From an uncultured virus (IMG/VR IMGVR_UViG_2061766007_000288) (Duplodnaviria > Heunggongvirae > Uroviricota > Caudoviricetes), in IMG/VR virus record IMGVR_UViG_2061766007_000288: 43,006 bases of DNA, one strand, 5' to 3'. The translations under genes were made by a program, and so were the position numbers. The notes beneath the pieces are model-generated. The model was given only the letters and a program-made list of their open reading frames with translations, had not been told where the DNA came from and ran no database searches. Shown here one piece after another: positions 2 through 35,597 of this stretch. The first letter of the stretch is position 1. Every line of letters begins with the position of its first letter.

Positions 2-445
2 GAGACGCTCGTTGGTATTCGGCACGGTGATGCGGAATACATGGTCGATGGTACGCGCCGGGTTGACCCATTCGTACATCCACTTGCACATGACGGCGCT
101 CTCGATGAAGATCGTCTTGTCTTTATACTTCCGGTCAAAGGTGAAATCGCAGAATATCTGCCCAAGCGCCGAACGCAGAGGGTACTGGACAAGGTTCATG
201 AGGAAGTCATAGACAGTCCCATCCTTCAATGCGAGGTCACGCACTTCCTGTGACAGGGAACCGAACGCATCGATTGCATCCGGGCCCCAGATGGACGTGA
301 CAGTACCGTACACGCTAGGGTTGCTCTTGTAGATAACCTTCATCAAGTTGTCCGTGTTGATGACCGGGTAGCCCATCTTCCTGAGTTCTTCGGCCACACT
401 GCTCTTCCCAGAGCCGATATTTCCACAAATGATACCGATTTTCAT
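2..445 (-). CDS. coaE: Dephospho-CoA kinase-like P-loop kinase (runs off window edge)
   Basis: Manual translation MKIGIICGNIGSGKSSVAEELRKMGYPVINTDNL...IFIESA; N-terminal Walker A in CoaE-type context. Confidence 0.75.
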   Translation of the reverse strand, partial: MKIGIICGNIGSGKSSVAEELRKMGYPVINTDNLMKVIYKSNPSVYGTVTSIWGPDAIDAFGSLSQEVRDLALKDGTVYDFLMNLVQYPLRSALGQIFCDFTFDRKYKDKTIFIESAVMCKWMYEWVNPARTIDHVFRITVPNTNERL

Positions 446-480: not shown

Positions 481-508
481 AATATAGCAATATAAATAAA
501 AATGGCAA
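481..508 (-). promoter_or_regulatory. Sigma70-like promoter TTGCCA-N16-TATATT (extended -10 TGC)
   Basis: Recurrent motif upstream of many genes in the window. Confidence 0.7.
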
Positions 509-551
509 CCGATGACTGAACACCGGTCGCCATCCAAAAAGAAAGAAATGA

Positions 552-1266: not shown

Positions 1267-1341
1267 TGCCGACGGCCAGGTTCGAACTGGCATGTGTCCG
1301 CTTAGAAGGCGGATGAACTAAATCCATTATTCTACGCCGGC
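1267..1341 (-). tRNA. tRNA-Arg(TCT)
   Basis: Cloverleaf, loop CTTCTAA. Confidence 0.9.
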
Positions 1342-1348
1342 TGAAAGA

Positions 1349-1678
1349 CTAGGCCTTTGCCGGTCTCAACACGAACTGATGCCTGGAATCCGCCCAGACA
1401 GTGGAAGGGGACGTGCCGCTGTAACCGCGGATGTCCACCGTGGAATGTCCGTCGGAGTAGGTGAATACATCGGTGGTGCCATGCTGATTGACGGCGCCAT
1501 CGGCGAAAAGGGTGAAGCCGAACTCGGAAGGGCCACCTGCGACCTCGCCGCCCTGGCCCCTGAGCCATTCCTTGGCGGCATCGAAATCGCCACCGGTCGC
1601 TTCCAGGGCCTGCTTACAGAGCAACATGCTCACCTGGGTCGCCTTGCGCAATTCGTTTATCTGTGCCACCGTAACCAT
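1349..1678 (-). CDS. EF-Ts N-terminal-domain protein fused to an unknown C-terminal domain
   Basis: VTVAQINELRKATQVSMLLCKQALEATGGDFDAAKEWLR resembles the EF-Ts N-domain; AAAGGA RBS. Confidence 0.8.
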   Translation of the reverse strand: MVTVAQINELRKATQVSMLLCKQALEATGGDFDAAKEWLRGQGGEVAGGPSEFGFTLFADGAVNQHGTTDVFTYSDGHSTVDIRGYSGTSPSTVWADSRHQFVLRPAKA

Positions 1679-1723
1679 AATGTATCCTTTGTTTAATAAT
1701 AGTGCGACATTCCGGATGACGTA

Positions 1724-1798
1724 GGGTATCAGACAAGACTTGAACTTGCAACGGCTGGTTCCACAAACCAGGGCTCCACCGATTGAGCTACTGACACC
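1724..1798 (-). tRNA. tRNA-His(GTG)
   Basis: Cloverleaf, loop TTGTGGA. Confidence 0.9.
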
Positions 1799-1804
1799 AT
1801 GTAG

Positions 1805-1889
1805 AAGAGAGTACAGGATTCGAACCTGTGGGCCCGAAGACCGTCACGTTAGCACCGTGATGCAATAAGCCAGACTCTGCCAACTCTCC
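1805..1889 (-). tRNA. tRNA-Ser(GCT)
   Basis: Long variable arm, loop GTGCTAA. Confidence 0.85.
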
Positions 1890-1893
1890 ATAA

Positions 1894-1966
1894 CGCCTAC
1901 TGAGTGGTTCGAACACCCGACCCCCTGATTACGAAACAGGCGCTCTTCCAACTGAGCTAAGTAGGC
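1894..1966 (-). tRNA. tRNA-Thr(CGT)
   Basis: Cloverleaf, loop TTCGTAA. Confidence 0.9.
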
Positions 1967-1973
1967 AATTTAA

Positions 1974-2046
1974 TCAGCGTGAGTGGGAACGATCCACCGA
2001 CCTCATGCTCCCGAAGCATGCGCTCTACCAGCTGAGCTACACACTG
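1974..2046 (-). tRNA. tRNA-Pro(CGG)
   Basis: Loop TTCGGGA; T-loop ATCG. Confidence 0.88.
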
Positions 2047-2052
2047 ATTTAG

Positions 2053-2134
2053 CGGAAGCGGAGGGACTCGAACCCCCAAATCTTTCGACCGGCAGATTTC
2101 AAGTCTGCTCCACCACCAGTTGTGGGACGCTTCC
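2053..2134 (-). tRNA. tRNA-Ser(TGA)
   Basis: Loop CTTGAAA, long variable arm. Confidence 0.88.
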
Positions 2135-2138
2135 ATAG

Positions 2139-2225
2139 CGGAAGCAGCAGGACTTGAACCTACATGAGGAACTTCCTCACCACCGGGTTCGAGCCGGGGG
2201 CCTTACCAATTAGGTCTATGCTTCC
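2139..2225 (-). tRNA. tRNA-Ser(CGA)
   Basis: Loop CTCGAAC, long variable arm. Confidence 0.88.
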
Positions 2226-2233
2226 AAAGTTCG

Positions 2234-2320
2234 CGGAAATGGGAGGGCTCGAACCTCCATGCAGCTTTCGCCACCACGCTCCTTTCCAAGGAGGGCCAAT
2301 ACCAGTTATGGGACATTTCC
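2234..2320 (-). tRNA. tRNA-Ser(GGA)
   Basis: Loop TTGGAAA, long variable arm. Confidence 0.88.
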
Positions 2321-2325
2321 AAAAA

Positions 2326-2398
2326 TGCCAGGTGTGAGAGTCGAACTCACTTTCTCGGGGTTTCAGTCCGGTCCATTCCCACGATTGGATGCCCTGGC
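2326..2398 (-). tRNA. Atypical tRNA-Phe(GAA), possibly pseudo
   Basis: Acceptor and T arm intact, loop CTGAAAC, weak anticodon stem, C8. Confidence 0.6.
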
Positions 2399-2405
2399 GA
2401 GATTT

Positions 2406-3224
2406 TTATTTATATACACCAATTAAATTTCTATCCGGCTTAAATGATTGTTTGCTTACAGAACACGACGAAAAGATTGGTATAAATTTATGAAAAATAA
2501 CACGCATACGACTTCTTGCTCTATTTTTACGACGAGAAAAGTCTGACAATGAATTACAATCGCTACTATGATACTCATCCCACAATTCACGGGCATGCTG
2601 TATTGACTGTTCAGCCTTTTCGTGCTGATGAATCATGGGTTGTTTGCGTTTTGGATTTGTTAAAAATTTGGGTGGCCGACATAACCCATTTCCCTTGTAT
2701 AAATATAAAATTGATTGTGTTTGACCATTATATACATACCTCCCAGGAACCCAATGATGGTCATCCGGCTGCTGTGCAAATAATTTTGACTCGCCGGTAG
2801 AATAATTGGTGTACCATTTGTTGCCATAATTTGAATTATTGCTCCCGCGTTGCAATGATGAAGTCATTTTTCCAATAATCCTAGCATATCTTGTACGCAA
2901 ATGTTCGTATGCCCTAGCAAATATATACCGTTCATGAAATTCGCCCGTCGCTCGCATATTCCAAAATGCGCATACCATTTTATTGTGTTCCTGTGTTCCA
3001 GCAGGATAGATTTTAGTCAATAACCAATGACATATAAAGTGCTCACGGGCAGTTAGCAACGCCCTATTAGCAATAACATCCAAACCACCCAAGGAGCGAG
3101 GTAATATATGATGTTCTTCAAAATAATGCCCATTGCGTTTTTGCTGTCGCCGATCATGATATTCGGCCTTTGCACGCAATACAATACTTGCATATATTTT
3201 ACAATAATCCATGTTACTTCCCAT
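2406..3224 (-). CDS. HNH homing endonuclease
   Basis: EEHHILPRSLGG...N...LTAREHFICHWLL motif; AT-rich insert within tRNA array. Confidence 0.85.
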   Translation of the reverse strand: MGSNMDYCKIYASIVLRAKAEYHDRRQQKRNGHYFEEHHILPRSLGGLDVIANRALLTAREHFICHWLLTKIYPAGTQEHNKMVCAFWNMRATGEFHERYIFARAYEHLRTRYARIIGKMTSSLQRGSNNSNYGNKWYTNYSTGESKLFAQQPDDHHWVPGRYVYNGQTQSILYLYKGNGLCRPPKFLTNPKRKQPMIHQHEKAEQSIQHARELWDEYHSSDCNSLSDFSRRKNRARSRMRVIFHKFIPIFSSCSVSKQSFKPDRNLIGVYK

Positions 3225-3231
3225 TTAATAG

Positions 3232-3315
3232 AGCACTTAGCAGGACTCGGACCTGCGAAGGGATTACCCAGCAGATTTGCAGTCTGCTTCCTTTGCCGCT
3301 CGGATTCATAAGTGC
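3232..3315 (-). tRNA. Atypical tRNA-Cys(GCA) with long variable arm
   Basis: Loop CTGCAAA, U73, variable hairpin GGG-TAAT-CCC. Confidence 0.8.
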
Positions 3316-3319
3316 ATTT

Positions 3320-3619
3320 TTAATAATCCATTACAAAAAGTGGTTCGGCCTTATTCAACTTGTTCAGCCGTTCAATCAGCATCTCGATCGCTTGTCTAGC
3401 TGTGCCATGCGGCAAAAACAAATTCTTTTCATATTCATCCAGTGGTTTTGCATTATCCGACCATGAAAATAATGAAGCAACACCATTACGGGGAGTGTAC
3501 TCGATGCCACGGAAGTAATCATCAAACCCGTCACACTTTTCACAATCAGTCGATGCTATTAGATGATAGACTGCGCCAGAACTATATTCTACACGAAACG
3601 CTATGCTTTCCGATATCAT
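3320..3619 (-). CDS. Hypothetical protein (99 aa) within tRNA array
   Basis: GGAGGA RBS, MISESIAFRVEYSSG...; fills gap between tRNAs. Confidence 0.7.
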   Translation of the reverse strand: MISESIAFRVEYSSGAVYHLIASTDCEKCDGFDDYFRGIEYTPRNGVASLFSWSDNAKPLDEYEKNLFLPHGTARQAIEMLIERLNKLNKAEPLFVMDY

Positions 3620-3653
3620 AATTCCTCCTGGAATTCCACAGCGTAAAACTATA

Positions 3654-3737
3654 TCCCGAGGACAGGACTCGAACCTGCACGCCCTTCCGGGCACCTGCTC
3701 CTAAGGCAGGCGCGTCTACCAATTCCGCCACCTCGGG
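3654..3737 (-). tRNA. tRNA-Leu(TAG)
   Basis: Loop CTTAGGA, long arm. Confidence 0.92.
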
Positions 3738-3740
3738 GAA

Positions 3741-3813
3741 TTGGGCTGGCTGGACTTGAACCAACAACATCAAGACTCAAAATCTTGCGTGCTACCAATT
3801 GCACCACGGCCCA
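3741..3813 (-). tRNA. tRNA-Gln(TTG)
   Basis: Loop TTTTGAG. Confidence 0.9.
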
Positions 3814-3817
3814 ATAG

Positions 3818-3890
3818 TAGCCCCTCCGAGGCTCGAACTCGGGTGCCGGGATTGAGAATCCCGTGACTTAAACCACTGGTCTAAAGGGCC
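3818..3890 (-). tRNA. tRNA-Glu(CTC)
   Basis: Loop TTCTCAA. Confidence 0.9.
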
Positions 3891-3895
3891 ATAAG

Positions 3896-3979
3896 TCGGC
3901 ACAGAGGGAATCGAACCCTCACGACCTTTCGGCCATCAGAACCTGAATCTGACGAGGCTACCAGTTACTCCACATGCCG
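3896..3979 (-). tRNA. tRNA-Leu(CAG)
   Basis: Loop TTCAGGT, long arm. Confidence 0.9.
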
Positions 3980-3983
3980 TTAG

Positions 3984-4068
3984 TCGCTCAAGTGGGAGTC
4001 GAACCCACATGCCCTTTCGGACAGCGCATTTTGAGTGCGCCGCGTATCACCAATTCCGCCACAGAGCG
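3984..4068 (-). tRNA. tRNA-Leu(CAA)
   Basis: Loop CTCAAAA, long arm. Confidence 0.9.
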
Positions 4069-4076
4069 ATAAATAG

Positions 4077-4147
4077 AGCGCCTATCCGGTCACGATCCGG
4101 AACCAACTGCTTGGAGGGCAGTGATGCAGCCATTACACCATAGGCGC
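4077..4147 (-). tRNA. tRNA-Gly(TCC)
   Basis: Loop CCTCCAA (C33); T-loop ATCG. Confidence 0.85.
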
Positions 4148-4151
4148 GTAA

Positions 4152-4228
4152 TGCGGGCAGCGGGACTCGAACCCGCGACCCATAGATTAAAAGTCTATTG
4201 CTCTAAAAACCGACTGAGCTATACCCGC
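4152..4228 (-). tRNA. tRNA-Lys(TTT)
   Basis: Loop CTTTTAA. Confidence 0.92.
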
Positions 4229-4265
4229 GAAGTGCAGTTGGAAGAGCAATGGCCAACTGCTACCA

Positions 4266-4298
4266 TCATAATCGGGTGCGTTTCAAAATCTTTTTCAT
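4266..4298 (-). CDS. Minigene MKKILKRTRL
   Basis: AAGGAG RBS; positional homologue at 5861-5884. Confidence 0.5.
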   Translation of the reverse strand: MKKILKRTRL

Positions 4299-4314
4299 TG
4301 TTTTTACTCCTTAG

Positions 4315-4387
4315 TCGCCAGAGTGGGACTCGAACCCACAGATGACCGGGTTTAAGCCAGTTGTCTCTGCCATTCGACTACCTGGCG
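4315..4387 (-). tRNA. tRNA with TAA anticodon (Leu) and short variable loop
   Basis: Loop CTTAAAC, 5-nt variable loop. Confidence 0.8.
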
Positions 4388-4400
4388 TTGGTTTGCTTAG

Positions 4401-4483
4401 TCTCGATGGCTGGACTTGAACCATGCACTCTGTTACGAACCAGCCCCTCAAGCTGGCGGGTCTACCAATTCCCCCACATCGAG
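4401..4483 (-). tRNA. tRNA-Leu(GAG)
   Basis: Loop TTGAGGG. Confidence 0.9.
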
Positions 4484-4487
4484 ATAG

Positions 4488-4563
4488 TTGCCCGTGATGG
4501 ATTTGGACCACCGTGAGAATCCCGCGTTCAGAGCGCGGCGCCTTACCACTTGGCTAACGGGCA
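4488..4563 (-). tRNA. tRNA-Gln(CTG)
   Basis: Loop CTCTGAA; T-loop TCC. Confidence 0.85.
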
Positions 4564-4566
4564 ATA

Positions 4567-4639
4567 AGCGGCATACGAGGATCGGACTCGTGGCCTCAAC
4601 CATGGCAAGGTTGCGCTCTCCCAGCTGAGCTAATGCCGC
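4567..4639 (-). tRNA. tRNA-Gly(GCC)
   Basis: Loop TTGCCAT. Confidence 0.9.
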
Positions 4640-4653
4640 ATAATAAATTGTAG

Positions 4654-4739
4654 TGCCGGTTGATGGATTCGGACCACCGAAAGTTCGTACGAACGGGAGG
4701 GTTACAGCCTCCAGCCATTGACCACTAGGCGAAACCGGC
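4654..4739 (-). tRNA. tRNA-Tyr(GTA)
   Basis: Loop CTGTAAC, long arm. Confidence 0.88.
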
Positions 4740-4743
4740 ATAG

Positions 4744-4816
4744 CTCCACCTCCTGGACTCGAACCAGGGACCATGCGATTAACAGTCGCACGCTCTACCA
4801 ACTGAGCTAAGGTGGA
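4744..4816 (-). tRNA. tRNA-Asn(GTT)
   Basis: Loop CTGTTAA. Confidence 0.93.
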
Positions 4817-4827
4817 ATAAAGAATAG

Positions 4828-4916
4828 TGGGTTGGGTAGGAGTCGAACCTACAATGTTTACCCAAAGGGCCCAGATTTACAGTCTGGTGCGACACCGCCA
4901 TCGTCGCGGCCAACCC
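4828..4916 (-). tRNA. tRNA-Tyr(GTA), atypical D arm
   Basis: Loop CTGTAAA; C8; 5-bp D stem. Confidence 0.83.
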
Positions 4917-4928
4917 ATAATTTGTTAG

Positions 4929-5002
4929 CAGGGACAGAGAGATTCGAACTCCCGACACGCGGTTTTGGAGACCGCCGTTCTACCGGACTGAACTACATCC
5001 CT
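4929..5002 (-). tRNA. tRNA-Trp(CCA)
   Basis: Loop CTCCAAA. Confidence 0.92.
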
Positions 5003-5021
5003 ATAATTTCAAAGTCGATAA

Positions 5022-5095
5022 CGGGACCAACGGGGGTCGAACCCGTGATTTCCAGCGTGACAAGCTGGTGTCCTAGCCAACTAGACGATGGTCCC
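5022..5095 (-). tRNA. tRNA-Asp(GTC)
   Basis: Loop TTGTCAC. Confidence 0.92.
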
Positions 5096-5099
5096 ATAG

Positions 5100-5174
5100 T
5101 TGCGGAGGAAGGATTTGAACCTTCGACCAACGGATTATGATTCCGCTGCTCTGACCGGGCTGAGCTACACCGCA
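5100..5174 (-). tRNA. tRNA with CAT anticodon (Met; initiator/elongator/Ile2 not resolved)
   Basis: Loop ATCATAA. Confidence 0.85.
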
Positions 5175-5186
5175 ATAATTTGTTCG

Positions 5187-5262
5187 TGCACCATCAAGGA
5201 CTCGAACCTTGGACCCGATGCTTAAGAGGCAACTGCTCTGGAACCAACTGAGCTAATGATGC
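5187..5262 (-). tRNA. tRNA-Lys(CTT)
   Basis: Loop CTCTTAA. Confidence 0.9.
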
Positions 5263-5266
5263 ATAG

Positions 5267-5339
5267 TGGCGCCACCGGGATTCGAACCCGAGTTCCAGGA
5301 ATGAAAATCCTGTGTCCTTGGCCTCTAGACGATAGCGCC
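5267..5339 (-). tRNA. tRNA-Glu(TTC)
   Basis: Loop TTTTCAT. Confidence 0.9.
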
Positions 5340-5494
5340 GTNNNNNNNNNNAAAACTTTACTTGACATCCCTTGATACTGAGTCTTTGATTATGGTGAGT
5401 GACCCAATGGTTCCTCAATGTCTCACGCGGACCTCACGGTTTACTTCCCCTACAATGCCAAGTTTCACATCGGGAAACACATGACCAGCCTTAG

Positions 5495-5579
5495 TCCCGC
5501 AAGCCGGGATCGAACCGGCACGCATATTCCAGCACCGGATTTTGAGGCCGGCGTGTCTACCAAATTCCACCACAGCGGG
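5495..5579 (-). tRNA. tRNA-Leu(CAA)
   Basis: Loop CTCAAAA, long arm (second variant). Confidence 0.9.
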
Positions 5580-5586
5580 ATAATAG

Positions 5587-5671
5587 TCGGCACAGAGGGA
5601 TTCGAACCCATCACGTACAAACGTACACTGCGCCCTGAACGCAGCGCGGCTACCAGTTACGCCACATGCCG
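5587..5671 (-). tRNA. tRNA-Leu(CAG)
   Basis: Loop TTCAGGG, long arm. Confidence 0.88.
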
Positions 5672-5680
5672 ATAAGTTAA

Positions 5681-5751
5681 AGCGCCTATCCGGGGTCGAA
5701 CCGGAACCAACTGCTTGGAGGGCAGTGATGCAGCCAATACACCATAGGCGC
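5681..5751 (-). tRNA. tRNA-Gly(TCC)
   Basis: Loop CCTCCAA (C33). Confidence 0.87.
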
Positions 5752-5755
5752 ATAA

Positions 5756-5828
5756 TGCGGGCGACGAGTTTCGAACTCGCAGCCCCCGGATTAAAAGTCC
5801 GGTGCTCGACCAGTTGAGCTTCGCCCGC
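5756..5828 (-). tRNA. tRNA-Lys(TTT)
   Basis: Loop CTTTTAA; A8. Confidence 0.88.
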
Positions 5829-5860
5829 AGGCTGTCGCAACTGGACGGCAGTTGCCACCT

Positions 5861-5884
5861 TTATAATCGTTTCTGTTTCTTCAT
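5861..5884 (-). CDS. Minigene MKKQKRL
   Basis: AGGAG RBS; positional homologue of 4266-4298. Confidence 0.5.
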   Translation of the reverse strand: MKKQKRL

Positions 5885-5899
5885 AGTTGCATTCTCCTA

Positions 5900-5985
5900 T
5901 CGGCGATATGGGACTCGAACCCATATGCACATTTCGTGCTTCGGATTTTAAGTCCGAATTGTCTTTCCAGTTCCAGCAATCGCCG
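5900..5985 (-). tRNA. tRNA-Leu(TAA)
   Basis: Loop CTTAAAA, long arm. Confidence 0.87.
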
Positions 5986-5998
5986 GATTGTTGTTTAG

Positions 5999-6084
5999 TC
6001 TCGATGGCTGGACTCGAACCATGCACGCATATTTCAGCACCAGCCCCTCAAGCTGGCGGGTCTACCAAATTTCCCCACATCGAG
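5999..6084 (-). tRNA. tRNA-Leu(GAG)
   Basis: Loop TTGAGGG. Confidence 0.9.
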
Positions 6085-6088
6085 ATAG

Positions 6089-6150
6089 TTGCCCGTGATG
6101 GATTTGGACCACCGTGAGAATCNNNNNNNNNNGGACTTGGCTAACGGGCA
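6089..6150 (-). tRNA. tRNA-Gln(CTG) interrupted by assembly gap
   Basis: Ends match 4488-4563; anticodon lies in the N-run. Confidence 0.7.
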
Positions 6151-6153
6151 ATA

Positions 6154-6226
6154 AGCGGCATACGAGGTTCGAACTCGTGACCTCAACCATGGCAAGGTTG
6201 CGCTCTACCAACTGAGCTAATGCCGC
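6154..6226 (-). tRNA. tRNA-Gly(GCC)
   Basis: Loop TTGCCAT. Confidence 0.92.
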
Positions 6227-6240
6227 ATAATAAATTGTAG

Positions 6241-6326
6241 TGCCGGGTGATGGATTCGAACCACCGAAAGTTCGCGAGAACGGGAGGGTTACGGCCTCCA
6301 GCCATTGGCCACTAGGCGAACCCGGC
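6241..6326 (-). tRNA. tRNA-Tyr(GTA)
   Basis: Loop CCGTAAC (C33), long arm. Confidence 0.85.
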
Positions 6327-6330
6327 ATAG

Positions 6331-6403
6331 CTCCACCTCCTGGATTCGAACCAGGAACCTGACGGTTAACAGCCGCCTGCTCTACCAGTTGAGCTAAGGT
6401 GGA
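6331..6403 (-). tRNA. tRNA-Asn(GTT)
   Basis: Loop CTGTTAA. Confidence 0.92.
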
Positions 6404-6414
6404 ATAAAGAATAG

Positions 6415-6503
6415 TGGGTTGGGTAGGATTCGGACCTACAATGTTGACCCTAAGGGACCGGATTTACAGTCCGGCGCGACACCACCATCGCCGCAGCCAA
6501 CCC
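6415..6503 (-). tRNA. tRNA-Tyr(GTA), atypical D arm
   Basis: Loop CTGTAAA; homologue of 4828-4916. Confidence 0.83.
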
Positions 6504-6516
6504 ATAGAATTTTTCG

Positions 6517-6589
6517 CAGGGACTGAGAGATTCGGACTCCCGACATGCAGTTTTGGAGACTGCCGTTCTTCCAGCTGAACTAAATCCCT
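6517..6589 (-). tRNA. tRNA-Trp(CCA)
   Basis: Loop CTCCAAA. Confidence 0.9.
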
Positions 6590-6596
6590 ATATTCG

Positions 6597-6671
6597 TACT
6601 CGAAGAGGGAGTCGAACCCCCGACCCACTGCTTGTAAGGCAGTCGCTCTGAACCAACTGAGCTACACGAGT
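6597..6671 (-). tRNA. tRNA-Val(TAC)
   Basis: Loop CTTACAA. Confidence 0.9.
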
Positions 6672-6675
6672 ATAA

Positions 6676-6749
6676 CGAGAGCGGCGGGGTTCGAACCCGC
6701 GAATGGCGGTTAGACAGACCGCTGTGTTGAGCCTCTTCACCACGCCCCC
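6676..6749 (-). tRNA. tRNA-Asp(GTC)
   Basis: Loop CTGTCTA, G73. Confidence 0.87.
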
Positions 6750-6761
6750 AAAATGTTTAAC

Positions 6762-6858
6762 GCAGCCCCCGGTGCTTTAGGTTCTTATGTTGTTTCGGCG
6801 CTTTGTACCGACCGACCTTAACTTTGTCGGAGCCGGCATTCTTTAACTGCCGGGCTGC
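6762..6858 (-). ncRNA. Unassigned multibranch structured RNA in tRNA array
   Basis: Closing stem GCAGCC/GGCTGC enclosing three hairpins. Confidence 0.5.
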
Positions 6859-6862
6859 ATCG

Positions 6863-6937
6863 TTGCGGAAGAAGGATTTGAACCTTCGACCAACGGATTA
6901 TGATTCCGCTGCTCTGACCGGGCTGAGCTACACCGCA
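6863..6937 (-). tRNA. tRNA with CAT anticodon (Met)
   Basis: Near-identical to 5100-5174. Confidence 0.85.
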
Positions 6938-6949
6938 ATAATTTGTTCG

Positions 6950-7021
6950 TGCTCCTACCTGGGCTCGAACCAGGATCCACAGATTAAGAGTCTGCTCGTC
7001 TAGCCATTGACATATAGAAGC
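6950..7021 (-). tRNA. tRNA-Lys(CTT)
   Basis: Loop CTCTTAA. Confidence 0.88.
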
Positions 7022-7025
7022 ATAG

Positions 7026-7099
7026 TCCTCACCCCTGAACTCGAATCAGGAACCTCTACCTTATCAGAGTAGCTATCTAACCAATTGATATAGATGAGG
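7026..7099 (-). tRNA. tRNA-Ile(GAT)
   Basis: Loop CTGATAA. Confidence 0.88.
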
Positions 7100-7100
7100 A

Positions 7101-7158
7101 TGGTGGAGCACGATGCAGCCTAGGCTGCTTCCCGGCAAAGCCGGATGGATACTGCCCC
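7101..7158 (-). ncRNA. 58-nt tRNA-like mini-RNA with alanine identity elements
   Basis: GGGGCA/TGCTCC stem with G3-U70, A73 and encoded CCA; two internal hairpins. Confidence 0.55.
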
Positions 7159-7171
7159 AAAATCCATTTAG

Positions 7172-7245
7172 TAGGACCTCCGGGTGTCGATCCCGGTTCC
7201 CCGCCGTGAAAGGGCGATGAACTAGCCAGCGTATTCTAAGGTCCC
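7172..7245 (-). tRNA. tRNA-Glu(TTC)
   Basis: Loop CTTTCAC; T-loop ATCG. Confidence 0.87.
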
Positions 7246-7252
7246 AAATTCG

Positions 7253-7330
7253 TAGTCACTGAGAGATTCGAACTCCCGACCCCCGCGTTCGTAGCACGGT
7301 GCTCTTAAATTCCATCTGAGCTAAGTGACC
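7253..7330 (-). tRNA. tRNA-Arg(ACG)
   Basis: Loop CTACGAA. Confidence 0.9.
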
Positions 7331-7345
7331 ATATTTTAAAAACTA

Positions 7346-8116
7346 TTATTTCCCTTCATATTTGCCGTATTTTGATTCCCATTTCATAATACGCTGCTGC
7401 AATTCTTCGAGAGTAATCGATGATTTCTTATTCTTTGAAACATTATCCACATACAACATTAACTGGCAATTTGCTGGATGTGCAATTATTTCGGGCAACA
7501 CTTTATTATCAAACCCAGATTTAACACTGTACATGTGATCCCGTGTGACACCGGAAGGATTATTCTTCTTATTTTTGGGACTGTACCATCCATATTGCTT
7601 AACCAGGCTAAAATCAAACTCATCCGGATAATTTTGCAATGCAAATTTGAACATACATGCTTGTCTATACTGCCTATAAGTACCACGAAATTCATCATTC
7701 ACGACATGTTGATTAAACCGGTGTCTGCACTCAGCAGAGCAGAAACGCCTATGACTGGAATGACCGATTGAAATTAGCTTTCCACAACATTTACAAATTA
7801 TTGGGGGCAATGCAATCCGTTGTCCATTCACAAACTTCTTGCCAGTCAGAGTAGCACTAACCTTTGCCTTAGTTTCATCGGTACGGATGCGAGAGTTTGC
7901 ACAACTACGCGAACAGAACCTAGGTAACCTATTCTTATCCAAGTCAATTTGCTTTATCATTTTATGAAACGGTTGACGGCAATGTTCACATATTGCAGTA
8001 CATTCAACCAAACGTGCATTTCGCTCTCCTATACGCCGCCACGTTTCATGTGATTTTTCCCAACCAAGTTTGATATTCCGTCGGTTTGCCGCCAATTTCT
8101 TTTCACTAATAGCCAT
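7346..8116 (-). CDS. Putative HNH-type homing endonuclease with Zn-ribbon and NUMOD3-like motifs
   Basis: CxxC...FCSxxC repeats, RTDETKAKVS motif, C-terminal TRDH...HPANCQLM...N; AT-rich. Confidence 0.75.
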   Translation of the reverse strand: MAISEKKLAANRRNIKLGWEKSHETWRRIGERNARLVECTAICEHCRQPFHKMIKQIDLDKNRLPRFCSRSCANSRIRTDETKAKVSATLTGKKFVNGQRIALPPIICKCCGKLISIGHSSHRRFCSAECRHRFNQHVVNDEFRGTYRQYRQACMFKFALQNYPDEFDFSLVKQYGWYSPKNKKNNPSGVTRDHMYSVKSGFDNKVLPEIIAHPANCQLMLYVDNVSKNKKSSITLEELQQRIMKWESKYGKYEGK

Positions 8117-8202
8117 TACACTCTCCAACATCTTCCATTATAATATAGCTTATACTTGACAGCAAATGTAGATGGTTCGATATAAAAATCTATCCAAAAT
8201 AG

Positions 8203-8274
8203 TGGAACCGGTGGAAATCGAATCCACCCACCCGGCTTGCAAGGCCAGGTCGCCTCCTTGGAACATGCGGCCCC
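8203..8274 (-). tRNA. tRNA-Ala(TGC)
   Basis: Loop CTTGCAA, G3-U70, C8, weak D stem. Confidence 0.85.
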
Positions 8275-8284
8275 AAATGTTTAC

Positions 8285-8357
8285 TGGACCCTACGAGGAA
8301 CGATCTCGTCACACCTACCTTGCGAAGGTAGGTCGCCACCAAGGAACATGAGAGCCC
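8285..8357 (-). tRNA. tRNA-Ala(CGC)
   Basis: Loop TTCGCAA, G3-U70, C8. Confidence 0.85.
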
Positions 8358-8416
8358 AAATTTTAAAGTCATCCGAAATGTCAATCTGCTAACCGGCTTC
8401 ACGAGCCGGTCGTTAG

Positions 8417-8489
8417 TGGAACCCTAGGAAATCGAATCCTACCCATCGATCCTGCCAGGATCAATCGCCTCCTTGGAACATGGGGCCCC
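8417..8489 (-). tRNA. tRNA-Ala(GGC)
   Basis: Loop CTGGCAG, G3-U70, C8. Confidence 0.83.
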
Positions 8490-8506
8490 ATATGCGGCGG
8501 TTAATT

Positions 8507-8541
8507 AAAAAACCAGGTTGCTCTTTCGTTGCAACCTGGTT
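8507..8541 (-). terminator. Intrinsic terminator (attenuator) immediately upstream of the first tRNA
   Basis: AACCAGGTTGC-N9-GCAACCTGGTT then T-run. Confidence 0.8.
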
Positions 8542-8569
8542 CCTTATCAACCCAACCTAAAAGGAATTT

Positions 8570-8671
8570 TTACCAGTGCAACGGCCCCAATTTCTTGGCG
8601 CAACCGAGATTACGTTCTGCGGCGGCAAAACTAATCGTGCGATAATCCAAGTGTGACAGTTGCTGTTTCAT
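8570..8671 (-). CDS. Putative leader peptide of the tRNA operon (33 aa)
   Basis: MKQQLSHLDYRTISFAAAERNLGCAKKLGPLHW; last codons overlap an antiterminator strand. Confidence 0.65.
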   Translation of the reverse strand: MKQQLSHLDYRTISFAAAERNLGCAKKLGPLHW

Positions 8672-8779
8672 AGTAAAATTTTCTCTTACGACATATTGTT
8701 TATATGAATGTTAGAAATAAAATGATGGATTTTCAAGGGTAAAATGCAACTTTTTATGTAAAAAGAAGTTTACATTTAT

Positions 8780-9625
8780 TTACGCTTCGGTCAAGTGGGT
8801 CGAAAAGTCCGGGTGTGCGGACTTGTAGACCGGTTCCAGTTCATCCAGTTTCCCGGTGAGCCACTGGATATTGTCCCCATTGAACCACGTCTGGTGCTTG
8901 GTCACATCGTTGTCATCATGCACCTTCGTCCACGATGTGCGCACGATTACCTTCGGTGCGCCCTCCGGCAACCCCAGGGGACCGCTGATGCTAATGAACA
9001 GATAATGTGAATCGTCGATATTGAAGTTGGCGCGGTACTTCTCGATGGCATCCACATCTCGGGAGATGAACGACTTGGCCGGATCCGCGTTCGCAATTAC
9101 ATTGAGTATCTTGTCCCGCAGTTTCGATGTGAACCTGTGGTACTTGCCGAACTCGTAGATGTGGTTCTTCTCCACGTAGTCAGAATAGAGCGCATCAAAG
9201 AACTCCTCGGCCCTGGCCTTCGACATCTTGCCGGCTGCCCTGCACTGGCTGCGGAAATACTTCTTGAACCCCGCTGCATCCATGTTGCATGTCGGGCATG
9301 CGTCCACGACATGCCACCCGAAATCTTGAATCGGAATGAACCCGGCCATTTTGAGCATCACCGTAAGGTGAATGTACCGATCGTCCATCGGCTGCCCAGT
9401 AATGTCATAGAGTGGCATGTGGTTGCCAATCCAGTTCAACAACTTGTTGAACGGGGTGCACAGGAAATGCCATGGCCTCCTGAACAGCGTGTAATACAGG
9501 CTCGGCTTGATGAGCAGGACATTGCGCGTATATGTGGTGTCTGCATACTTGGCGAGTTGATCCTTGGACATCCTGATGCAATCGTCCATCTCAGCCAGCG
9601 TCTTGACATATTCTTCCATGGTCAT
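8780..9625 (-). CDS. Hypothetical protein (281 aa)
   Basis: Long ORF with GGAG RBS. Confidence 0.75.
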   Translation of the reverse strand: MTMEEYVKTLAEMDDCIRMSKDQLAKYADTTYTRNVLLIKPSLYYTLFRRPWHFLCTPFNKLLNWIGNHMPLYDITGQPMDDRYIHLTVMLKMAGFIPIQDFGWHVVDACPTCNMDAAGFKKYFRSQCRAAGKMSKARAEEFFDALYSDYVEKNHIYEFGKYHRFTSKLRDKILNVIANADPAKSFISRDVDAIEKYRANFNIDDSHYLFISISGPLGLPEGAPKVIVRTSWTKVHDDNDVTKHQTWFNGDNIQWLTGKLDELEPVYKSAHPDFSTHLTEA

Positions 9626-9705
9626 AAAAATAACTCCGGTTACTATCCGGGGTAAAACTATTCTATAATCCGCTACGAAACGGCTTTTATGCTACTCGTA
9701 GCGGC

Positions 9706-27266: not shown

Positions 27267-28037
27267 TTATGCATGGCAACTTTCATTTCTCATCGCCTTT
27301 CCCAGCCGTCTGAGCTGTTCGGCACGGTCGGATGGGCACCATCGGTCGATGACCTTCGCACACAAGCCCATCTTGAAATTGTTGTCCACCGGCAAGTCAA
27401 TCAGCAGCTGACCGGCCTTAGGGGTAAATCCGGGAATAAGCTCACTCATCGGGATTGGGGTAGCATTCACAATGATATCCATCGGTTCGAACGCGATTGC
27501 CTCATATGTCGTACCCTCGACCGCACAGGTGACCTTGCCAACCTGTTCGGCAATGGCATCTATAGCCAGCTCGATATCGATTGCAGTATCGGACTTTCCG
27601 CGGCTCACCAGGTTCAGATATACGCAGACTGGATAAAGAGCCATTGCAGCTGCCTTTGCCATGCGTCCGGTGCCGAGGACGGCAGCCATCACATCAGACT
27701 TTCCGAACAGAAACGGCATGATGGTATCAACAAGCATGTCGTATGCAGAATCGTTGCCACACACGGTACCGACTTCATTGTTCCAGAAAATCGTGTCGGC
27801 AAACCCGGTTGGGGTCTTGGTGAAGCTTTGCCATCCAGCGGCATCGTCGGCCAATTTAGGTTCCGGAAGGTACAGACCCCCTACATACCTATGCTCAACC
27901 AAGGACAAGAAATCCCATATATGCGTATGTTCAGAAAGTCCAATGGATCGAATATTGTCACAGGATAGCTGTTTAAAGAAGGCGGTATCCGGGCCTTCCT
28001 TAGACAGATTGAGGATCATGTACAACGGTTCCTGCAT
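27267..28037 (-). CDS. Degenerate shikimate-dehydrogenase-like Rossmann protein
   Basis: VLGTGRMAKA, DIIVNATPIPM, DTI...G.N motifs. Confidence 0.7.
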   Translation of the reverse strand: MQEPLYMILNLSKEGPDTAFFKQLSCDNIRSIGLSEHTHIWDFLSLVEHRYVGGLYLPEPKLADDAAGWQSFTKTPTGFADTIFWNNEVGTVCGNDSAYDMLVDTIMPFLFGKSDVMAAVLGTGRMAKAAAMALYPVCVYLNLVSRGKSDTAIDIELAIDAIAEQVGKVTCAVEGTTYEAIAFEPMDIIVNATPIPMSELIPGFTPKAGQLLIDLPVDNNFKMGLCAKVIDRWCPSDRAEQLRRLGKAMRNESCHA

Positions 28038-28045
28038 GGCGTCTC

Positions 28046-28792
28046 CTACGGATGTGGAATACGGACGATTTCACGCTTGAACTGGTTACGACCGGCCATA
28101 GCATTAATCTTGGCGGCAGCTTCCGGGTCAATCGGCTTGTTGGCGAGGTAATCTTCAATCTGGGCGTAGGTAATGCCAAGGGATTCTTCGTCAGTCTTGC
28201 CGCTAAGGCCATCACTAGGAGCCTTGAACACAAGCCGTTCCGGAAGACCCATAAACTTGCCCAGTTCGCATACCTCGCGCTTCGTGAGGATGGACAATGG
28301 AGCAAAGTCACCTGCCAAGTCACCCCATAGGGTGCAATAGCCTACGAGTGCTTCACAGCGGTTCCCGGTGCAGCACACGCGACCGTTAATCGGCTGACCA
28401 TTCTCATCTACAGACTGGGCAATGGCATAAAGCGTAGCCATGCGCAGGCGAGGGCGGAGATTCAGCTTAGCCTGTTCAGAACCACTGAAGCCAGGGATAA
28501 TCTTGGCCATCTGGGCATTGACTTCGCCAATATTCACTTCGTAAGTACGAGTGATTCCGGCAGCAGCCGCTGCATCATAGGCATCCTGGATATCCGGCTG
28601 GTAACCGCATGGCATGAAAACACCGATGACGTTTTCCGGGCCAACCGCTTCAACCGCGAAACGGCCAGCAACTGTAGAATCCGCGCCACCAGACATGCCA
28701 AGAATGACAGTCTTGCCACCACTATTCTTGACATAATCCCTAATCCAGCCAACAATGTGGTCATGGATCTTGACCAGTTCTTCTTTTTGCAT
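28046..28792 (-). CDS. nadE: NH3-dependent NAD+ synthetase
   Basis: LGMSGGADS, NLRPRLRM, TGNRCE..VGYCTLWGD, KAPSDGL, TDEESLG. Confidence 0.93.
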   Translation of the reverse strand: MQKEELVKIHDHIVGWIRDYVKNSGGKTVILGMSGGADSTVAGRFAVEAVGPENVIGVFMPCGYQPDIQDAYDAAAAAGITRTYEVNIGEVNAQMAKIIPGFSGSEQAKLNLRPRLRMATLYAIAQSVDENGQPINGRVCCTGNRCEALVGYCTLWGDLAGDFAPLSILTKREVCELGKFMGLPERLVFKAPSDGLSGKTDEESLGITYAQIEDYLANKPIDPEAAAKINAMAGRNQFKREIVRIPHP

Positions 28793-28872
28793 ATTCACCT
28801 CTTTAAGGTTTTTTCAAAATATAGTAAAAAATACTAGTTTTTATGTATGAAAATCAAATAAAGGGCCACTTT

Positions 28873-29241
28873 ATGGTAACATTAGAAGAATTAAAGAAAA
28901 TTTCTGACATGCCGCTTATTGAACGCAGCTTTTACGCCAAACTTGAAGAAGCGAAGAAGGTAGCGCTCACTACCAACAGTCGCAGCATAGAACTCAATGT
29001 CATGAAGCTCAGTTTCTTCAAGGAGCAAGTCGCAGAACTACTCAAGGAACAATTCGACATAGATGAAATGTACAAGAGCCAGTATGAACAGGTGAAAATG
29101 TTCAAGGATGCCGGATTTACCGTCACTGAGGAAGACCCGGCACCCGCTATCATTACATCGATAGGCGAAGATTCGAAAAGCAAACTCCAGCGAGAATTTG
29201 AAAGCCGATACCTTGAAAAGAAAGTCACAGTTTCCTGGTGA
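28873..29241 (+). CDS. Hypothetical protein
   Basis: ORF followed by hairpin 29245-29270; start uncertain. Confidence 0.7.
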   Translation: MVTLEELKKISDMPLIERSFYAKLEEAKKVALTTNSRSIELNVMKLSFFKEQVAELLKEQFDIDEMYKSQYEQVKMFKDAGFTVTEEDPAPAIITSIGEDSKSKLQREFESRYLEKKVTVSW

Positions 29242-29272
29242 ATAAAAGAGGCCGGTCATCCGGCCCCTTTCG

Positions 29273-30598: not shown

Positions 30599-30608
30599 NN
30601 NNNNNNNN

Positions 30609-33309: not shown

Positions 33310-33319
33310 NNNNNNNNNN

Positions 33320-33796: not shown

Positions 33797-33813
33797 TTAT
33801 TAGTCCGTTCTTG

Positions 33814-33990: not shown

Positions 33991-34060
33991 ATTCGAAATA
34001 TAGCAAAAAAACTTCTAGTTGCGTGGTTGATGGGTTAAATTTTTGAAATAGTTTTTCGGC

Positions 34061-35587: not shown

Positions 35588-35597
35588 NNNNNNNNNN

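What the first reader, a model, noticed from the sequence alone, without database searches (positions are those of the whole stretch)
8507..8704. Candidate pan-amino-acid translational attenuator controlling a phage tRNA operon
Seen, minus strand: a TATAAAC motif (8698-8704), a 33-codon ORF MKQQLSHLDYRTISFAAAERNLGCAKKLGPLHW (8570-8671), then an 11-bp terminator with T-run (8507-8541) 17 nt before the first tRNA. The peptide has 19 of 20 amino acids (no Val) and 27 distinct codons, including both Gln, both Lys and three Leu codons; 17 amino acids occur in the first 24 codons. Its 3' end can pair with the terminator's 5' arm: CGTTGCA (8577-83) with TGCAACG (8527-33), CTGG with CCAG, and TTCCTT with AAGGAA. 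This helix is mutually exclusive with the terminator. Established: trp/his-type attenuators use this geometry but sense one amino acid through repeated codons. Inference: a ribosome reaching the stop codon masks the antiterminator and keeps the operon off, while stalling on almost any depleted or cleaved tRNA allows read-through. The phage would then induce replacement tRNAs on demand, e.g. against anticodon-nuclease defences. An Ala-specific alternative (GCC GCC GCA run before three tRNA-Ala genes) is also possible. I do not know of a described example.
Basis: partly seen in the sequence, partly recalled or inferred. Interest (0 to 1): 0.93.

Follow-up and report, generated by a model that had tools for sequence, protein, structure and literature searches.

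The report
Leader-peptide attenuator before phage tRNA array
A short translated leader and a switchable terminator sit in front of a huge phage's block of tRNA genes, built like the classic trp/his attenuators but apparently set to turn on tRNA genes when the tRNAs they encode run short.

Summary
On the minus strand lie a sigma-70-like promoter, a 33-codon ORF (8671-8570), an 11-bp terminator with a U6 tail (8541-8507) and, 17 nt on, the first of 47 tRNA genes.

The attenuator reading holds up in comparison. Five relatives from four sequence-divergent lineages keep promoter, Shine-Dalgarno site, open frame, terminator and tRNA array. The peptide itself drifts (pN/pS 0.28-1.04).

In every one, once the terminator's 3' arm is withheld, its 5' arm pairs with the last codons of the ORF. 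The helices differ in sequence between lineages and are stronger than in shuffles.

Leader codons track the tRNAs downstream:
- In one relative, 82% of leader codons are read by its own array against 48% in its genes.
- A second, unrelated leader before a second array matches that array (69% against 34%) and not the first.
- In an unrelated 635-kb phage, each of seven tRNA clusters has its own best-matching leader (best of 5040 assignments), and an eighth unit precedes an asparagine-tRNA ligase gene.

"Pan-amino-acid" is therefore the special case of a nearly complete array. Ala codons are the most conserved signal. Nothing was tested at the bench. Eight literature searches found no described example.

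The parts
8708..8736 (-). sigma-70-like promoter (TTGAAA, 17 nt, TAACAT)
   Evidence: It is the only match in the window to the -35 word plus TATAAA pattern (0 expected). The -35 and -10 are kept in relatives.
8698..8704 (-). TATAAAC motif at the predicted transcription start
   Evidence: It is present in G001, L005, L134 and L136, and with one extra A in L006. Its role is inferred.
8683..8687 (-). Shine-Dalgarno-like purine run, 11 nt before the ATG
   Evidence: Relatives have a stronger AAGGA-type site 8-11 nt before their ATG.
8570..8671 (-). 33-codon leader ORF with stop codon
   Evidence: The frame is open in 7 of 7 leaders examined and both other frames are closed in all. pN/pS is 0.28-1.04. 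L006 has an in-frame insertion of one Ala codon.
8618..8626 (-). three consecutive Ala codons (codons 16-18) in the loop of the apical hairpin
   Evidence: The run is 4 codons in L006, 3 in L134, and broken in G001.
8659..8678 (-). region 1: 5' UTR end, start codon and first codons, paired with region 2 in the full-length fold
   Evidence: Pair table. A like closure appears in the folds of G001, L006, L005 and L112 and of L136.
8572..8583 (-). region 2: antiterminator 5' strand, made of the last four codons and the first base of the stop codon
   Evidence: fold with the 3' arm withheld; shuffles.
8527..8541 (-). region 3: terminator 5' arm (8541-8531) plus the first loop bases used by the antiterminator
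8507..8521 (-). region 4: terminator 3' arm (8521-8511) and U6 tail (8512-8507)
   Evidence: -20.6 kcal/mol.
8416..8489 (-). first gene behind the terminator: aberrant tRNA-Ala (GGC)
   Evidence: ARAGORN. Not found by Rfam's tRNA model.
8202..8357 (-). two further Ala-like tRNA copies (about 8357-8284 and 8275-8202). Anticodons CGC and TGC were read by eye.
   Evidence: sequence; BLAST to phage tRNA-Ala genes at 8275-8202; weak tRNA-Sec hit at 8274-8204.
1267..7330 (-). remaining 46 tRNA genes of the array, interrupted by two endonuclease-like ORFs
500..535 (-). terminator after the last tRNA. Apart from the leader terminator it is the only strong hairpin on this strand in or beside the array.

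Best explanation
This is a leader-peptide transcription attenuator of the trp/his type placed in front of a phage tRNA operon.

How it would work:
- Host RNA polymerase starts at the promoter (8736-8708) and a ribosome translates the 33-codon leader.
- If the ribosome runs to the stop codon, it covers the last four codons (region 2). The terminator (regions 3:4) then forms and transcription ends 17 nt before the first tRNA.
- If nothing is translated, region 2 is held by the start of the ORF (region 1) and the terminator also forms.
- If the ribosome stalls earlier in the ORF for lack of a charged tRNA, region 2 pairs with the terminator's 5' arm and the polymerase reads into the array.

The codons of the leader are drawn from those that the array's own tRNAs read. 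The array would therefore be switched on when its products are short and off when they suffice. With a nearly complete array the leader looks 'pan-amino-acid'. Ala codons, matching the Ala tRNAs that open the array, are the most conserved part of the signal.

Shown: the anatomy, its conservation, the alternative pairings and the codon match. Inferred: translation, stalling, and regulated read-through.
For: (1) Anatomy in the window.

(2) Relatives. Six further sequences of the window type or related types were found, of which L002 and L078 hold only part of the leader: G001/L004, L006, L112, L002, L078. Three more diverged lineages were found through the ligase gene: L005, L134, L136, with ligase 64-70% identical. 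In all of them promoter, SD, ORF, terminator and tRNA array follow in the same order. L005 keeps this arrangement although the three upstream genes have no match there.

(3) Translation rather than peptide.
- The frame is open in 7 of 7 leaders and the other two frames are closed in all.
- pN/pS is 0.28, 1.04 and 0.48.
- There is one in-frame codon insertion.

(4) Antiterminator.
- With the 3' arm withheld, the minimum-energy fold pairs 8 of 10 bases of the 5' arm (6 of 10 in L134 and L136, where the helix runs on into the loop) with the last codons of the ORF. This holds in 7 of 7 first-array leaders.
- The helices are 10-12 bp and differ in sequence between lineages.
- Energies are -18 to -28.5 kcal/mol against -20.6 to -28.4 for the terminators.
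- Shuffles that match both energy and arm pairing: 0, 0, 4 and 1 of 400; 0 and 0 of 400.

(5) Codon match to the own array.
- G002/L005: 37 of 45 leader codons against 48% in its ORFs. 0 of 50,000 and 0 of 30,000 windows reach this.
- G004: 30 of 35 against 67% (p 0.014).
- Window: 31 of 33 against 80% (p 0.028). Counting the Ala-like copies it is 32 of 33 against 83%.
- A second leader, unrelated in sequence, before a 13-tRNA second array in G005: 24 of 35 codons against 34%, and 28 of 35 residues against 45%. 0 of 50,000 windows reach either. The six first-array leaders score 20-33% on that set.

(6) Out-of-sample test in the unrelated phage LR745206.1.
- Seven units of short ORF, terminator and tRNA cluster were found.
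- The own leader is the best match for 7 of 7 clusters.
- The true pairing has the highest score of all 5040 assignments, at residue level and at codon level.
- The 5' arm pairs with the ORF's 3' part in 7 of 7 units. Shuffles matching both measures: 0 of 300 in five units, 1 and 14 of 300 in the other two.
- An eighth unit, whose 16-residue leader has 3 Asn and 2 Arg, precedes an asparagine-tRNA ligase gene.

(7) One unit. The leader terminator and a terminator after the last tRNA are the only strong hairpins in or beside the arrays of the window, G006 and G005.

(8) Contigs from RNA libraries run across the terminator into the first tRNA. This is weak support.
Against: - There is no direct evidence of translation, of stalling or of regulated termination. 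The RNA-library evidence is contigs only. They cannot show ends or levels and may be DNA carry-over.
- In the window itself the codon match is only modest (p about 0.02-0.04), because the array reads 47-49 of 61 codons.
- In G006, G003 and G005 the match is not significant as ARAGORN calls the tRNAs (p 0.09, 0.16, 0.74).
- Val is absent from the leader although tRNA-Val is in the array. Val is 1 of 148 residues in four pooled leaders against 7.4% in proteins.
- The SD in the window is weak and 11 nt from the ATG.
- For the second-array leader the antiterminator is much weaker than the terminator (-19.5 against -30.9 kcal/mol) and 13 of 400 shuffles match it.
- In LR745206.1 region 2 lies 10-35 nt before the stop in most units. 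A ribosome parked at the stop would then not always cover it.
- Promoter-like sites inside the array were not excluded: 5418-5389, 3132-3103 and 3038-3010.
- The window-type sequences are close relatives. The independent lineages number about four, plus the second array and the unrelated phage.
- The codon-match idea was formed on these data. Only the LR745206.1 test came after the hypothesis.
Confidence: 0.68

Rival explanations
1. An alanine-specific attenuator. The leader senses only charged tRNA-Ala through its Ala codons, and it controls an array that always opens with Ala tRNAs. The rest of the leader's composition is incidental.
For: - Ala is 31 of 148 residues (21%) in four pooled leaders against 7.1% in the phages' proteins.
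- L005 has 11 of 45, L134 8 of 35 and L136 8 of 35, each with p <= 0.003.
- Runs of 3-4 Ala codons occur in the window, L006 and L134. L006 gained one more Ala codon in frame.
- The arrays open with 2-4 Ala tRNAs in every lineage. In L005 the order is Phe then Ala.
Against: - In the window type the Ala count is not enriched (4 of 33, p 0.20), and G001 breaks the run.
- Ala alone does not explain that the G002 leader is also rich in Phe, Tyr, Asn and Gln codons that match its first tRNAs.
- It does not explain why the second-array leader has no Ala at all yet matches its own array.
- It does not explain the seven cluster-specific leaders of LR745206.1.
Confidence: 0.2
2. An ordinary small gene with its own terminator. 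The peptide has a function of its own. The tRNAs are made by leaky read-through, by a phage antitermination factor or from internal promoters, and translation has no role in the decision.
For: - A strong terminator right after a small ORF is common gene anatomy.
- Promoter-like sites exist inside the array.
- Some residues are kept among L005, L134 and L136.
- pN/pS is 0.28 for window against G001.
Against: - The peptide sequence is barely conserved between lineages, and pN/pS reaches 1.04.
- No Pfam-type function can be assigned to 33 residues.
- This reading does not explain a conserved, sequence-variable pairing between the last codons and the terminator's 5' arm.
- It does not explain leader composition that follows the downstream tRNAs in unrelated units.
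Confidence: 0.08
3. A structured non-coding RNA (a small stable RNA or a processing signal of the tRNA precursor) whose open frame is incidental.
For: - The leader folds far better than shuffles (z -4.46).
- Several substitutions fall in loops or turn G-U pairs into A-U pairs.
- Phage tRNA regions are known to carry small stable RNAs, as annotated in T5.
Against: - An ATG with an SD at the same place, and a frame open in 7 of 7 leaders while both other frames are closed.
- A 3-nt insertion.
- Codon content, not just base content, tracks the array.
- No Rfam family matches at E <= 1.
Confidence: 0.04

Closest known systems
Leader-peptide transcription attenuators of amino-acid operons (trp, his, leu, thr, ilvGMEDA, pheA of enterobacteria; from established knowledge, not from a call)
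   Same: - Promoter, short translated leader, intrinsic terminator and a mutually exclusive antiterminator.
- A further pairing that holds the antiterminator strand when nothing is translated.
- Regulatory codons that name the product of the genes behind.
- thr and ilv leaders already sense more than one amino acid.
   Different: - The regulated genes are tRNA genes, not biosynthetic enzymes.
- In the window up to 19 amino acids are sampled, mostly once each, instead of a run of one codon.
- The element is viral.
- There is no sequence or Rfam match to any known leader.
pheST (pheM leader) attenuator of phenylalanyl-tRNA synthetase in E. coli (recalled; the term search found only a pheL paper)
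   Same: An attenuator that controls a component of the decoding machinery, rather than amino-acid synthesis, by the supply of the cognate charged tRNA. The Asn/Arg-rich leader before the asparagine-tRNA ligase gene in LR745206.1 is of exactly this kind.
   Different: pheM controls a synthetase, not tRNA genes, and it senses one amino acid.
T-box riboswitches
   Same: Terminator/antiterminator switches that report the charging state of a specific tRNA.
   Different: T-boxes bind uncharged tRNA directly and need no translation. No specifier or T-box sequence was found here: Rfam gave no match at E <= 1. The element here depends on an ORF.
tRNA region of phage T5: promoters, small ORFs, stable RNAs and tRNA genes interleaved
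   Same: Annotated promoters followed by small hypothetical CDS directly before tRNA genes. One CDS has a stretch rich in Trp, Glu, Tyr and Phe ahead of tRNA Tyr-Glu-Trp-Phe, and one has 5 Cys of 42 residues ahead of tRNA-Cys.
   Different: I saw no terminator/antiterminator pair between these CDS and the tRNAs, and the CDS are longer (42-91 residues). This is a lead only.

Membership tests
Leader-peptide (ribosome-mediated) transcription attenuator | Short ORF with start codon and ribosome-binding site just downstream of a promoter | tested here: met
   Kept in all relatives that hold the whole leader.
Leader-peptide (ribosome-mediated) transcription attenuator | Intrinsic terminator between the leader ORF and the regulated genes | tested here: met
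   11 bp, U6 tail, -20.6 kcal/mol, 17 nt before the first tRNA.
Leader-peptide (ribosome-mediated) transcription attenuator | Antiterminator pairing that excludes the terminator and that a ribosome at the end of the ORF would mask | tested here: met
   Present in 7 of 7 first-array leaders with different helix sequences. It lies on the last 3-4 codons. Shuffle controls are given in the For line.
Leader-peptide (ribosome-mediated) transcription attenuator | Pairing of the antiterminator strand with an upstream segment when the leader is not translated (1:2) | tested here: inconclusive
   Seen in the minimum-energy folds of the window, L112, G001, L006 and L005 and of L136, but not of L134. No separate significance test was made.
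Leader-peptide (ribosome-mediated) transcription attenuator | Regulatory codons in the leader that correspond to the product of the regulated genes | tested here: met
   Strong in G002, in the G005 second array and in LR745206.1. Modest in the window (31-32 of 33 against 80-83%).
Leader-peptide (ribosome-mediated) transcription attenuator | Read-through rises when the cognate charged tRNA is limiting and depends on leader translation | not testable with these tools
   Needs reporter, Term-seq or Ribo-seq work. The RNA-library contigs cannot show it.
Known Rfam leader families (His, Trp, Thr, Leu leaders and the like) and T-box | Match to the family's covariance model | tested here: not met
   No match in 8490-8720 at E <= 1 against 4227 families.

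The most novel reading that the evidence does not exclude
Huge phages run a demand-driven tRNA supply. Each tRNA cluster, and at least one phage aminoacyl-tRNA synthetase gene, carries its own leader-peptide attenuator, written in the very codons that the cluster's tRNAs read. The phage would then make a given set of tRNAs only while ribosomes are stalling for want of them. The window's 33-codon, 19-amino-acid leader is the limiting case of this rule: one sensor for a nearly complete set of 47 tRNA genes. The rule holds in two unrelated phage lineages whose promoters are of different types (the promoter typing of the second lineage is by eye only), so it may be general among tRNA-rich phages.
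Probability: 0.6. Interest if true: 0.92.

Novelty: new variant of a known kind. Interest (0 to 1): 0.88.

Why it matters
How phages regulate their own tRNA genes is essentially unknown. The arrays are usually treated as constitutive cargo that fixes codon-usage mismatch or replaces tRNAs lost to host shut-off or defence.

A leader written in the array's own codons would give a simple feedback loop that measures decoding capacity directly. It would extend ribosome-mediated attenuation from amino-acid and synthetase operons to tRNA genes themselves.

It also gives a practical rule. The composition of a short ORF before a terminator predicts which tRNAs lie behind it, and which tRNAs the phage finds limiting in its host. 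Finally, it offers compact, codon-specific sensors for synthetic biology.

The claim is directly testable with reporter fusions.

Tried and rejected
- The protein upstream of the leader (8780-9625) found no relative in viral contigs or in named phages.
- DNA search of 8100-9700 against named phages hit only tRNA-Ala genes. The ligase finds nothing above 35% identity among named phages, so there is no cultured relative.
- An exact 24-mer of the ORF found nothing in viral contigs although G001 carries it. I cannot explain that.
- The promoter-plus-ORF-start pattern gave 8 stretches in viral contigs, 6 of them unrelated and without tRNAs.
Only 3 were related: L112, L078 and L054, the last being the L005 contig.
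- MAFFT did not put the diverged leaders into structural register (alignment A4). I therefore did not use the count of structure pairs or a covariance model and compared the helices sequence by sequence.
- Relatives of the second-array leader are nearly identical, so they give no covariation.
- Read laying returned contigs only, with no starts, ends or levels.
- T5 was examined as a possible cultured model. Composition hints were seen but no terminator/antiterminator pair, so it is not counted as support.
- The conserved TTGACA word after the first tRNA-Ala was considered as an internal promoter. I set this aside because the spacing to the A/T-rich hexamer is 13-16 nt and a start there would fall inside the next tRNA. 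This was judged by eye.

Full report
**What is there.** On the minus strand, one search shows the following, in order:
- the end of a 281-codon gene (stop at 8780);
- an A/T-rich spacer with a sigma-70-like promoter at 8736-8708;
- the TATAAAC word at 8704-8698, at the expected start site;
- a purine-rich ribosome-binding site at 8687-8683;
- an ATG at 8671 and a 33-codon frame ending in TAA at 8572-8570;
- a 29-nt spacer;
- an 11-bp G+C-rich hairpin with a 9-nt loop (8541-8511) and six U (8512-8507).

Seventeen bases further on, ARAGORN places the first of 47 tRNA genes, all on this strand, from 8489 down to 1267. Every coordinate and count in the finding is right. The consensus scan reports no terminator here only because it allows loops of at most 8. 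The window holds 231 masked bases and has 48% G+C.

**Is it more than chance.**
- The leader folds at -70 kcal/mol against -49.6 +/- 4.6 for 200 shuffles (z -4.46).
- Nineteen kinds of amino acid in 33 residues is reached by 0.32% of 33-residue windows of the window's own long ORFs, and by 0.97% of random draws.
The last four codons pair with the terminator's 5' arm and the first loop bases, at -20.0 kcal/mol against -20.6 for the terminator.
- In 400 shuffles of the upstream part the arm often finds some partner (138 of 400). None combines that pairing with the observed energy.

**Relatives.**
- Named phages hold no relative: the ligase is at most 35% identical.
- The sequencing runs that hold this stretch are from animal guts, mainly cattle.
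- The nearest held record, G001 (203 kb, estimated 52% complete), keeps the whole unit. The leader is better conserved there than the end of the gene before it.
- Further copies came from a terminator word (L002), from the ligase gene 3 kb upstream (L006, L005) and from a metagenome scan (L112, L078).
- The L005 ligase led to L134 and L136.
- L005 shares none of the three genes that lie between ligase and leader in the window. Yet it has the same order of promoter, TATAAAC, SD, a 45-codon ORF, terminator and tRNA array. The unit therefore travels with the array, not with the upstream genes.

**The frame is kept, the peptide is not.**
- All seven leaders examined are open from an ATG behind an SD, and both other frames are closed in every one.
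- L006 carries an in-frame insertion of one more Ala codon.
- pN/pS is 0.28 (window against G001), 1.04 (window against L006) and 0.48 (L134 against L136).
- Between the window type and the L005 group only the first few residues are alike.

This is what is expected when translation matters but the product does not.

**The antiterminator is kept with changing sequence.**
- In L005 the last codons form a 10-bp helix with the terminator's 5' arm.
- In L134 and L136 a 12-bp helix uses the arm's 3' half and the loop. The loop sequence has changed together with the ORF end.
- In the window type the helix is 7 + 5 bp.
- In all seven the 5' strand ends within two bases of the stop codon.
- Energies (-18.1 to -28.5 kcal/mol) are close to those of the terminators (-20.6 to -28.4).
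- Shuffles that reach both the energy and the arm pairing number 0, 0, 4 and 1 of 400 (window, L005, L006, G001), and 0 and 0 of 400 (L134, L136).
- In the full-length folds the start of the ORF, including the SD and ATG, pairs with this same strand in most copies. This supplies the third pairing of the classic scheme.

**What the leader senses.** High diversity as such is not conserved: 17, 18, 15, 17 and 14 kinds in G001, L006, L134, L136 and L005. Two other things are.

First, Ala. It makes up 31 of 148 pooled residues against 7.1% in the phages' proteins. It is significant in L005, L134 and L136, and is present as a run of three or four codons in the window, L006 and L134. Every array opens with Ala tRNAs.

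Second, the leader's codons are those that the array's own tRNAs read.
- The clearest case is G002 (L005), whose 22 tRNAs read only 30 codons: 37 of 45 leader codons against 48% of codons in its genes. No window out of 50,000 reaches that.
- G004 gives 30 of 35 against 67% (p 0.014).
- The window gives 31 of 33 against 80% (p 0.028), or 32 of 33 against 83% with the Ala-like copies counted.
- G006, G003 and G005 are not significant as called: p 0.09, 0.16 and 0.74.

**A second, independent leader.** G005 has a second compact array of 13 tRNAs (Trp, Gly, Gly, Lys, Met, Ile, Lys, Asp, Arg, Pro, Pro, Thr, Thr). Before it lie a promoter, an SD, a 35-codon ORF unrelated in sequence to the first leader, and a 12-bp terminator.
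- Twenty-eight of its 35 residues and 24 of its 35 codons belong to the array's set, against 45% and 34% in the genome's genes. 0 of 50,000 windows reach either figure.
- The six first-array leaders score only 20-33% on that codon set.
- The second leader scores 14% on the set of G002's first eleven tRNAs, where G002's own leader scores 67%.
- Its last three codons again pair with the terminator's 5' arm, though more weakly (13 of 400 shuffles).

**An out-of-sample test.** After forming this idea I looked at LR745206.1, a 635-kb uncultured phage of different base composition that had matched only a tRNA. It has 61 tRNA hits in several clusters.

A mechanical scan for U-tailed hairpins outside tRNAs gave 11 hairpins in five loci.
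- Seven lie 5-100 nt before a tRNA cluster, and each has an ATG ORF of 16-38 codons ending 17-33 nt upstream.
- One lies before protein genes.
- Three are elsewhere.

The fraction of each leader's residues that belong to its own cluster is 0.30, 0.48, 0.78, 0.20, 0.47, 0.26 and 0.35. Other leaders on the same clusters average 0.05, 0.11, 0.47, 0.02, 0.02, 0.05 and 0.14. The own leader is the best for 7 of 7 clusters, and the true pairing scores highest of all 5040 possible pairings, at residue level and at codon level. The terminator's 5' arm pairs with the 3' part of the ORF in all seven.

The eighth unit has a leader with three Asn and two Arg among 16 residues. It stands before a gene that NCBIfam names asparagine-tRNA ligase, above both curated cut-offs, followed by a truncated ORF with a weak arginine-tRNA ligase hit. 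That is the known logic of synthetase attenuators, and it ties these units to the classic mechanism.

**One unit or several.** In the window, G006 and G005 the only strong hairpins in or beside the arrays are the leader terminator and one after the last tRNA (window 535-500). Promoter-like matches inside the array are not more frequent than in shuffles (14 against 8.4 +/- 3.1). Three do lie in gaps on the right strand, so internal starts are not excluded. RNA-library contigs from two studies run from the upstream gene or the leader across the terminator into the first tRNA. This is compatible with read-through but proves nothing.

**Comparison and novelty.** The element works like the trp/his/leu/thr/ilv leaders and meets each structural criterion of that class that I could test. 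It matches no Rfam family. It differs in what it controls (tRNA genes), in sampling many codons, and in being viral.

Eight full-text searches found no description of a leader-peptide attenuator before tRNA genes. They combined leader peptide, attenuation, attenuator, terminator, tRNA operon, tRNA array, tRNA gene cluster, phage tRNA, viral tRNA, phage-encoded tRNA and huge phages. I saw search listings and abstract starts only and read no paper. The library lacks most subscription journals, so the older T4 and T5 literature was not covered.

**Verdict.** 'Pan-amino-acid' is best read as 'written in the codons of the array behind it'. The mechanism remains inferred.

Noticed in passing
window 8489-8202 (minus strand): The three Ala-like tRNA copies behind the terminator have an aberrant D-arm region. 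ARAGORN calls one, and Rfam's tRNA model calls none at E <= 1. The same aberrant type opens the arrays of L006 and L134, while G001, L002, L112 and L136 have canonical tRNA-Ala genes at that place.
   Followed up: partly
window 8400-8358 (minus strand), and the same spacer in G001, L002, L006, L112, L134: The spacer after the first tRNA-Ala is conserved: a 7-bp hairpin followed by a TTGACA word and an A/T-rich hexamer that abuts the next tRNA. The spacing (13-16 nt) and position argue against a normal promoter. Its role is unexplained.
   Followed up: partly
window 7346-8131 and 2406-3224 (minus strand): Two ORFs (261 and 272 residues) interrupt the tRNA array. The second has an HNH-like motif by eye. 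The first has only a sub-threshold zinc-finger hit. G001's array lacks both, so they look like mobile endonuclease insertions.
   Followed up: partly
window about 7245-5494 and 5339-3895 (minus strand): The order of tRNA genes (Glu, Lys, Met, Asp, Trp, Tyr, Asn, Tyr, Gly, Leu, Leu, Lys, Gly, Leu, Leu) occurs twice. This suggests a tandem duplication of a block of about 15 tRNAs that G001 has only once.
   Followed up: no
L142:1093-1451 and L143:1698-2058: Relatives G005 and G006 encode a tmRNA with an 11-residue tag among scattered tRNA genes.
   Followed up: no
L131:1991-3897: In G002 the tRNA array is split by two minus-strand ORFs of 438 and 195 residues. By eye they look like a TnpB-type protein and a serine recombinase, that is an IS607-like element. 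They were not scanned against families.
   Followed up: no
L150:3276-3379 and L154:223-1999: In LR745206.1 a leader-plus-terminator unit with Asn and Arg codons precedes a phage asparagine-tRNA ligase gene and a probable arginine-tRNA ligase gene.
   Followed up: yes
L153 (phage T5, record 28000-36000): T5's annotated small CDS between promoters and tRNA genes include T5.072, which has a stretch rich in Trp, Glu, Tyr and Phe ahead of tRNA Tyr-Glu-Trp-Phe, and T5.070, which has 5 Cys of 42 residues and ends 5 nt before tRNA-Cys. No terminator/antiterminator pair was seen. It is a possible cultured model to examine.
   Followed up: partly
L006:11263-14412: In L006 the homologue of the gene before the leader is split into two matching parts about 3.1 kb apart, which suggests an insertion.
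   Followed up: no
L112:~520-532: In L112 the leader is identical to the window's, but the terminator's 3' arm carries a G-to-T change that weakens the hairpin from -20.6 to -13.9 kcal/mol.
   Followed up: no
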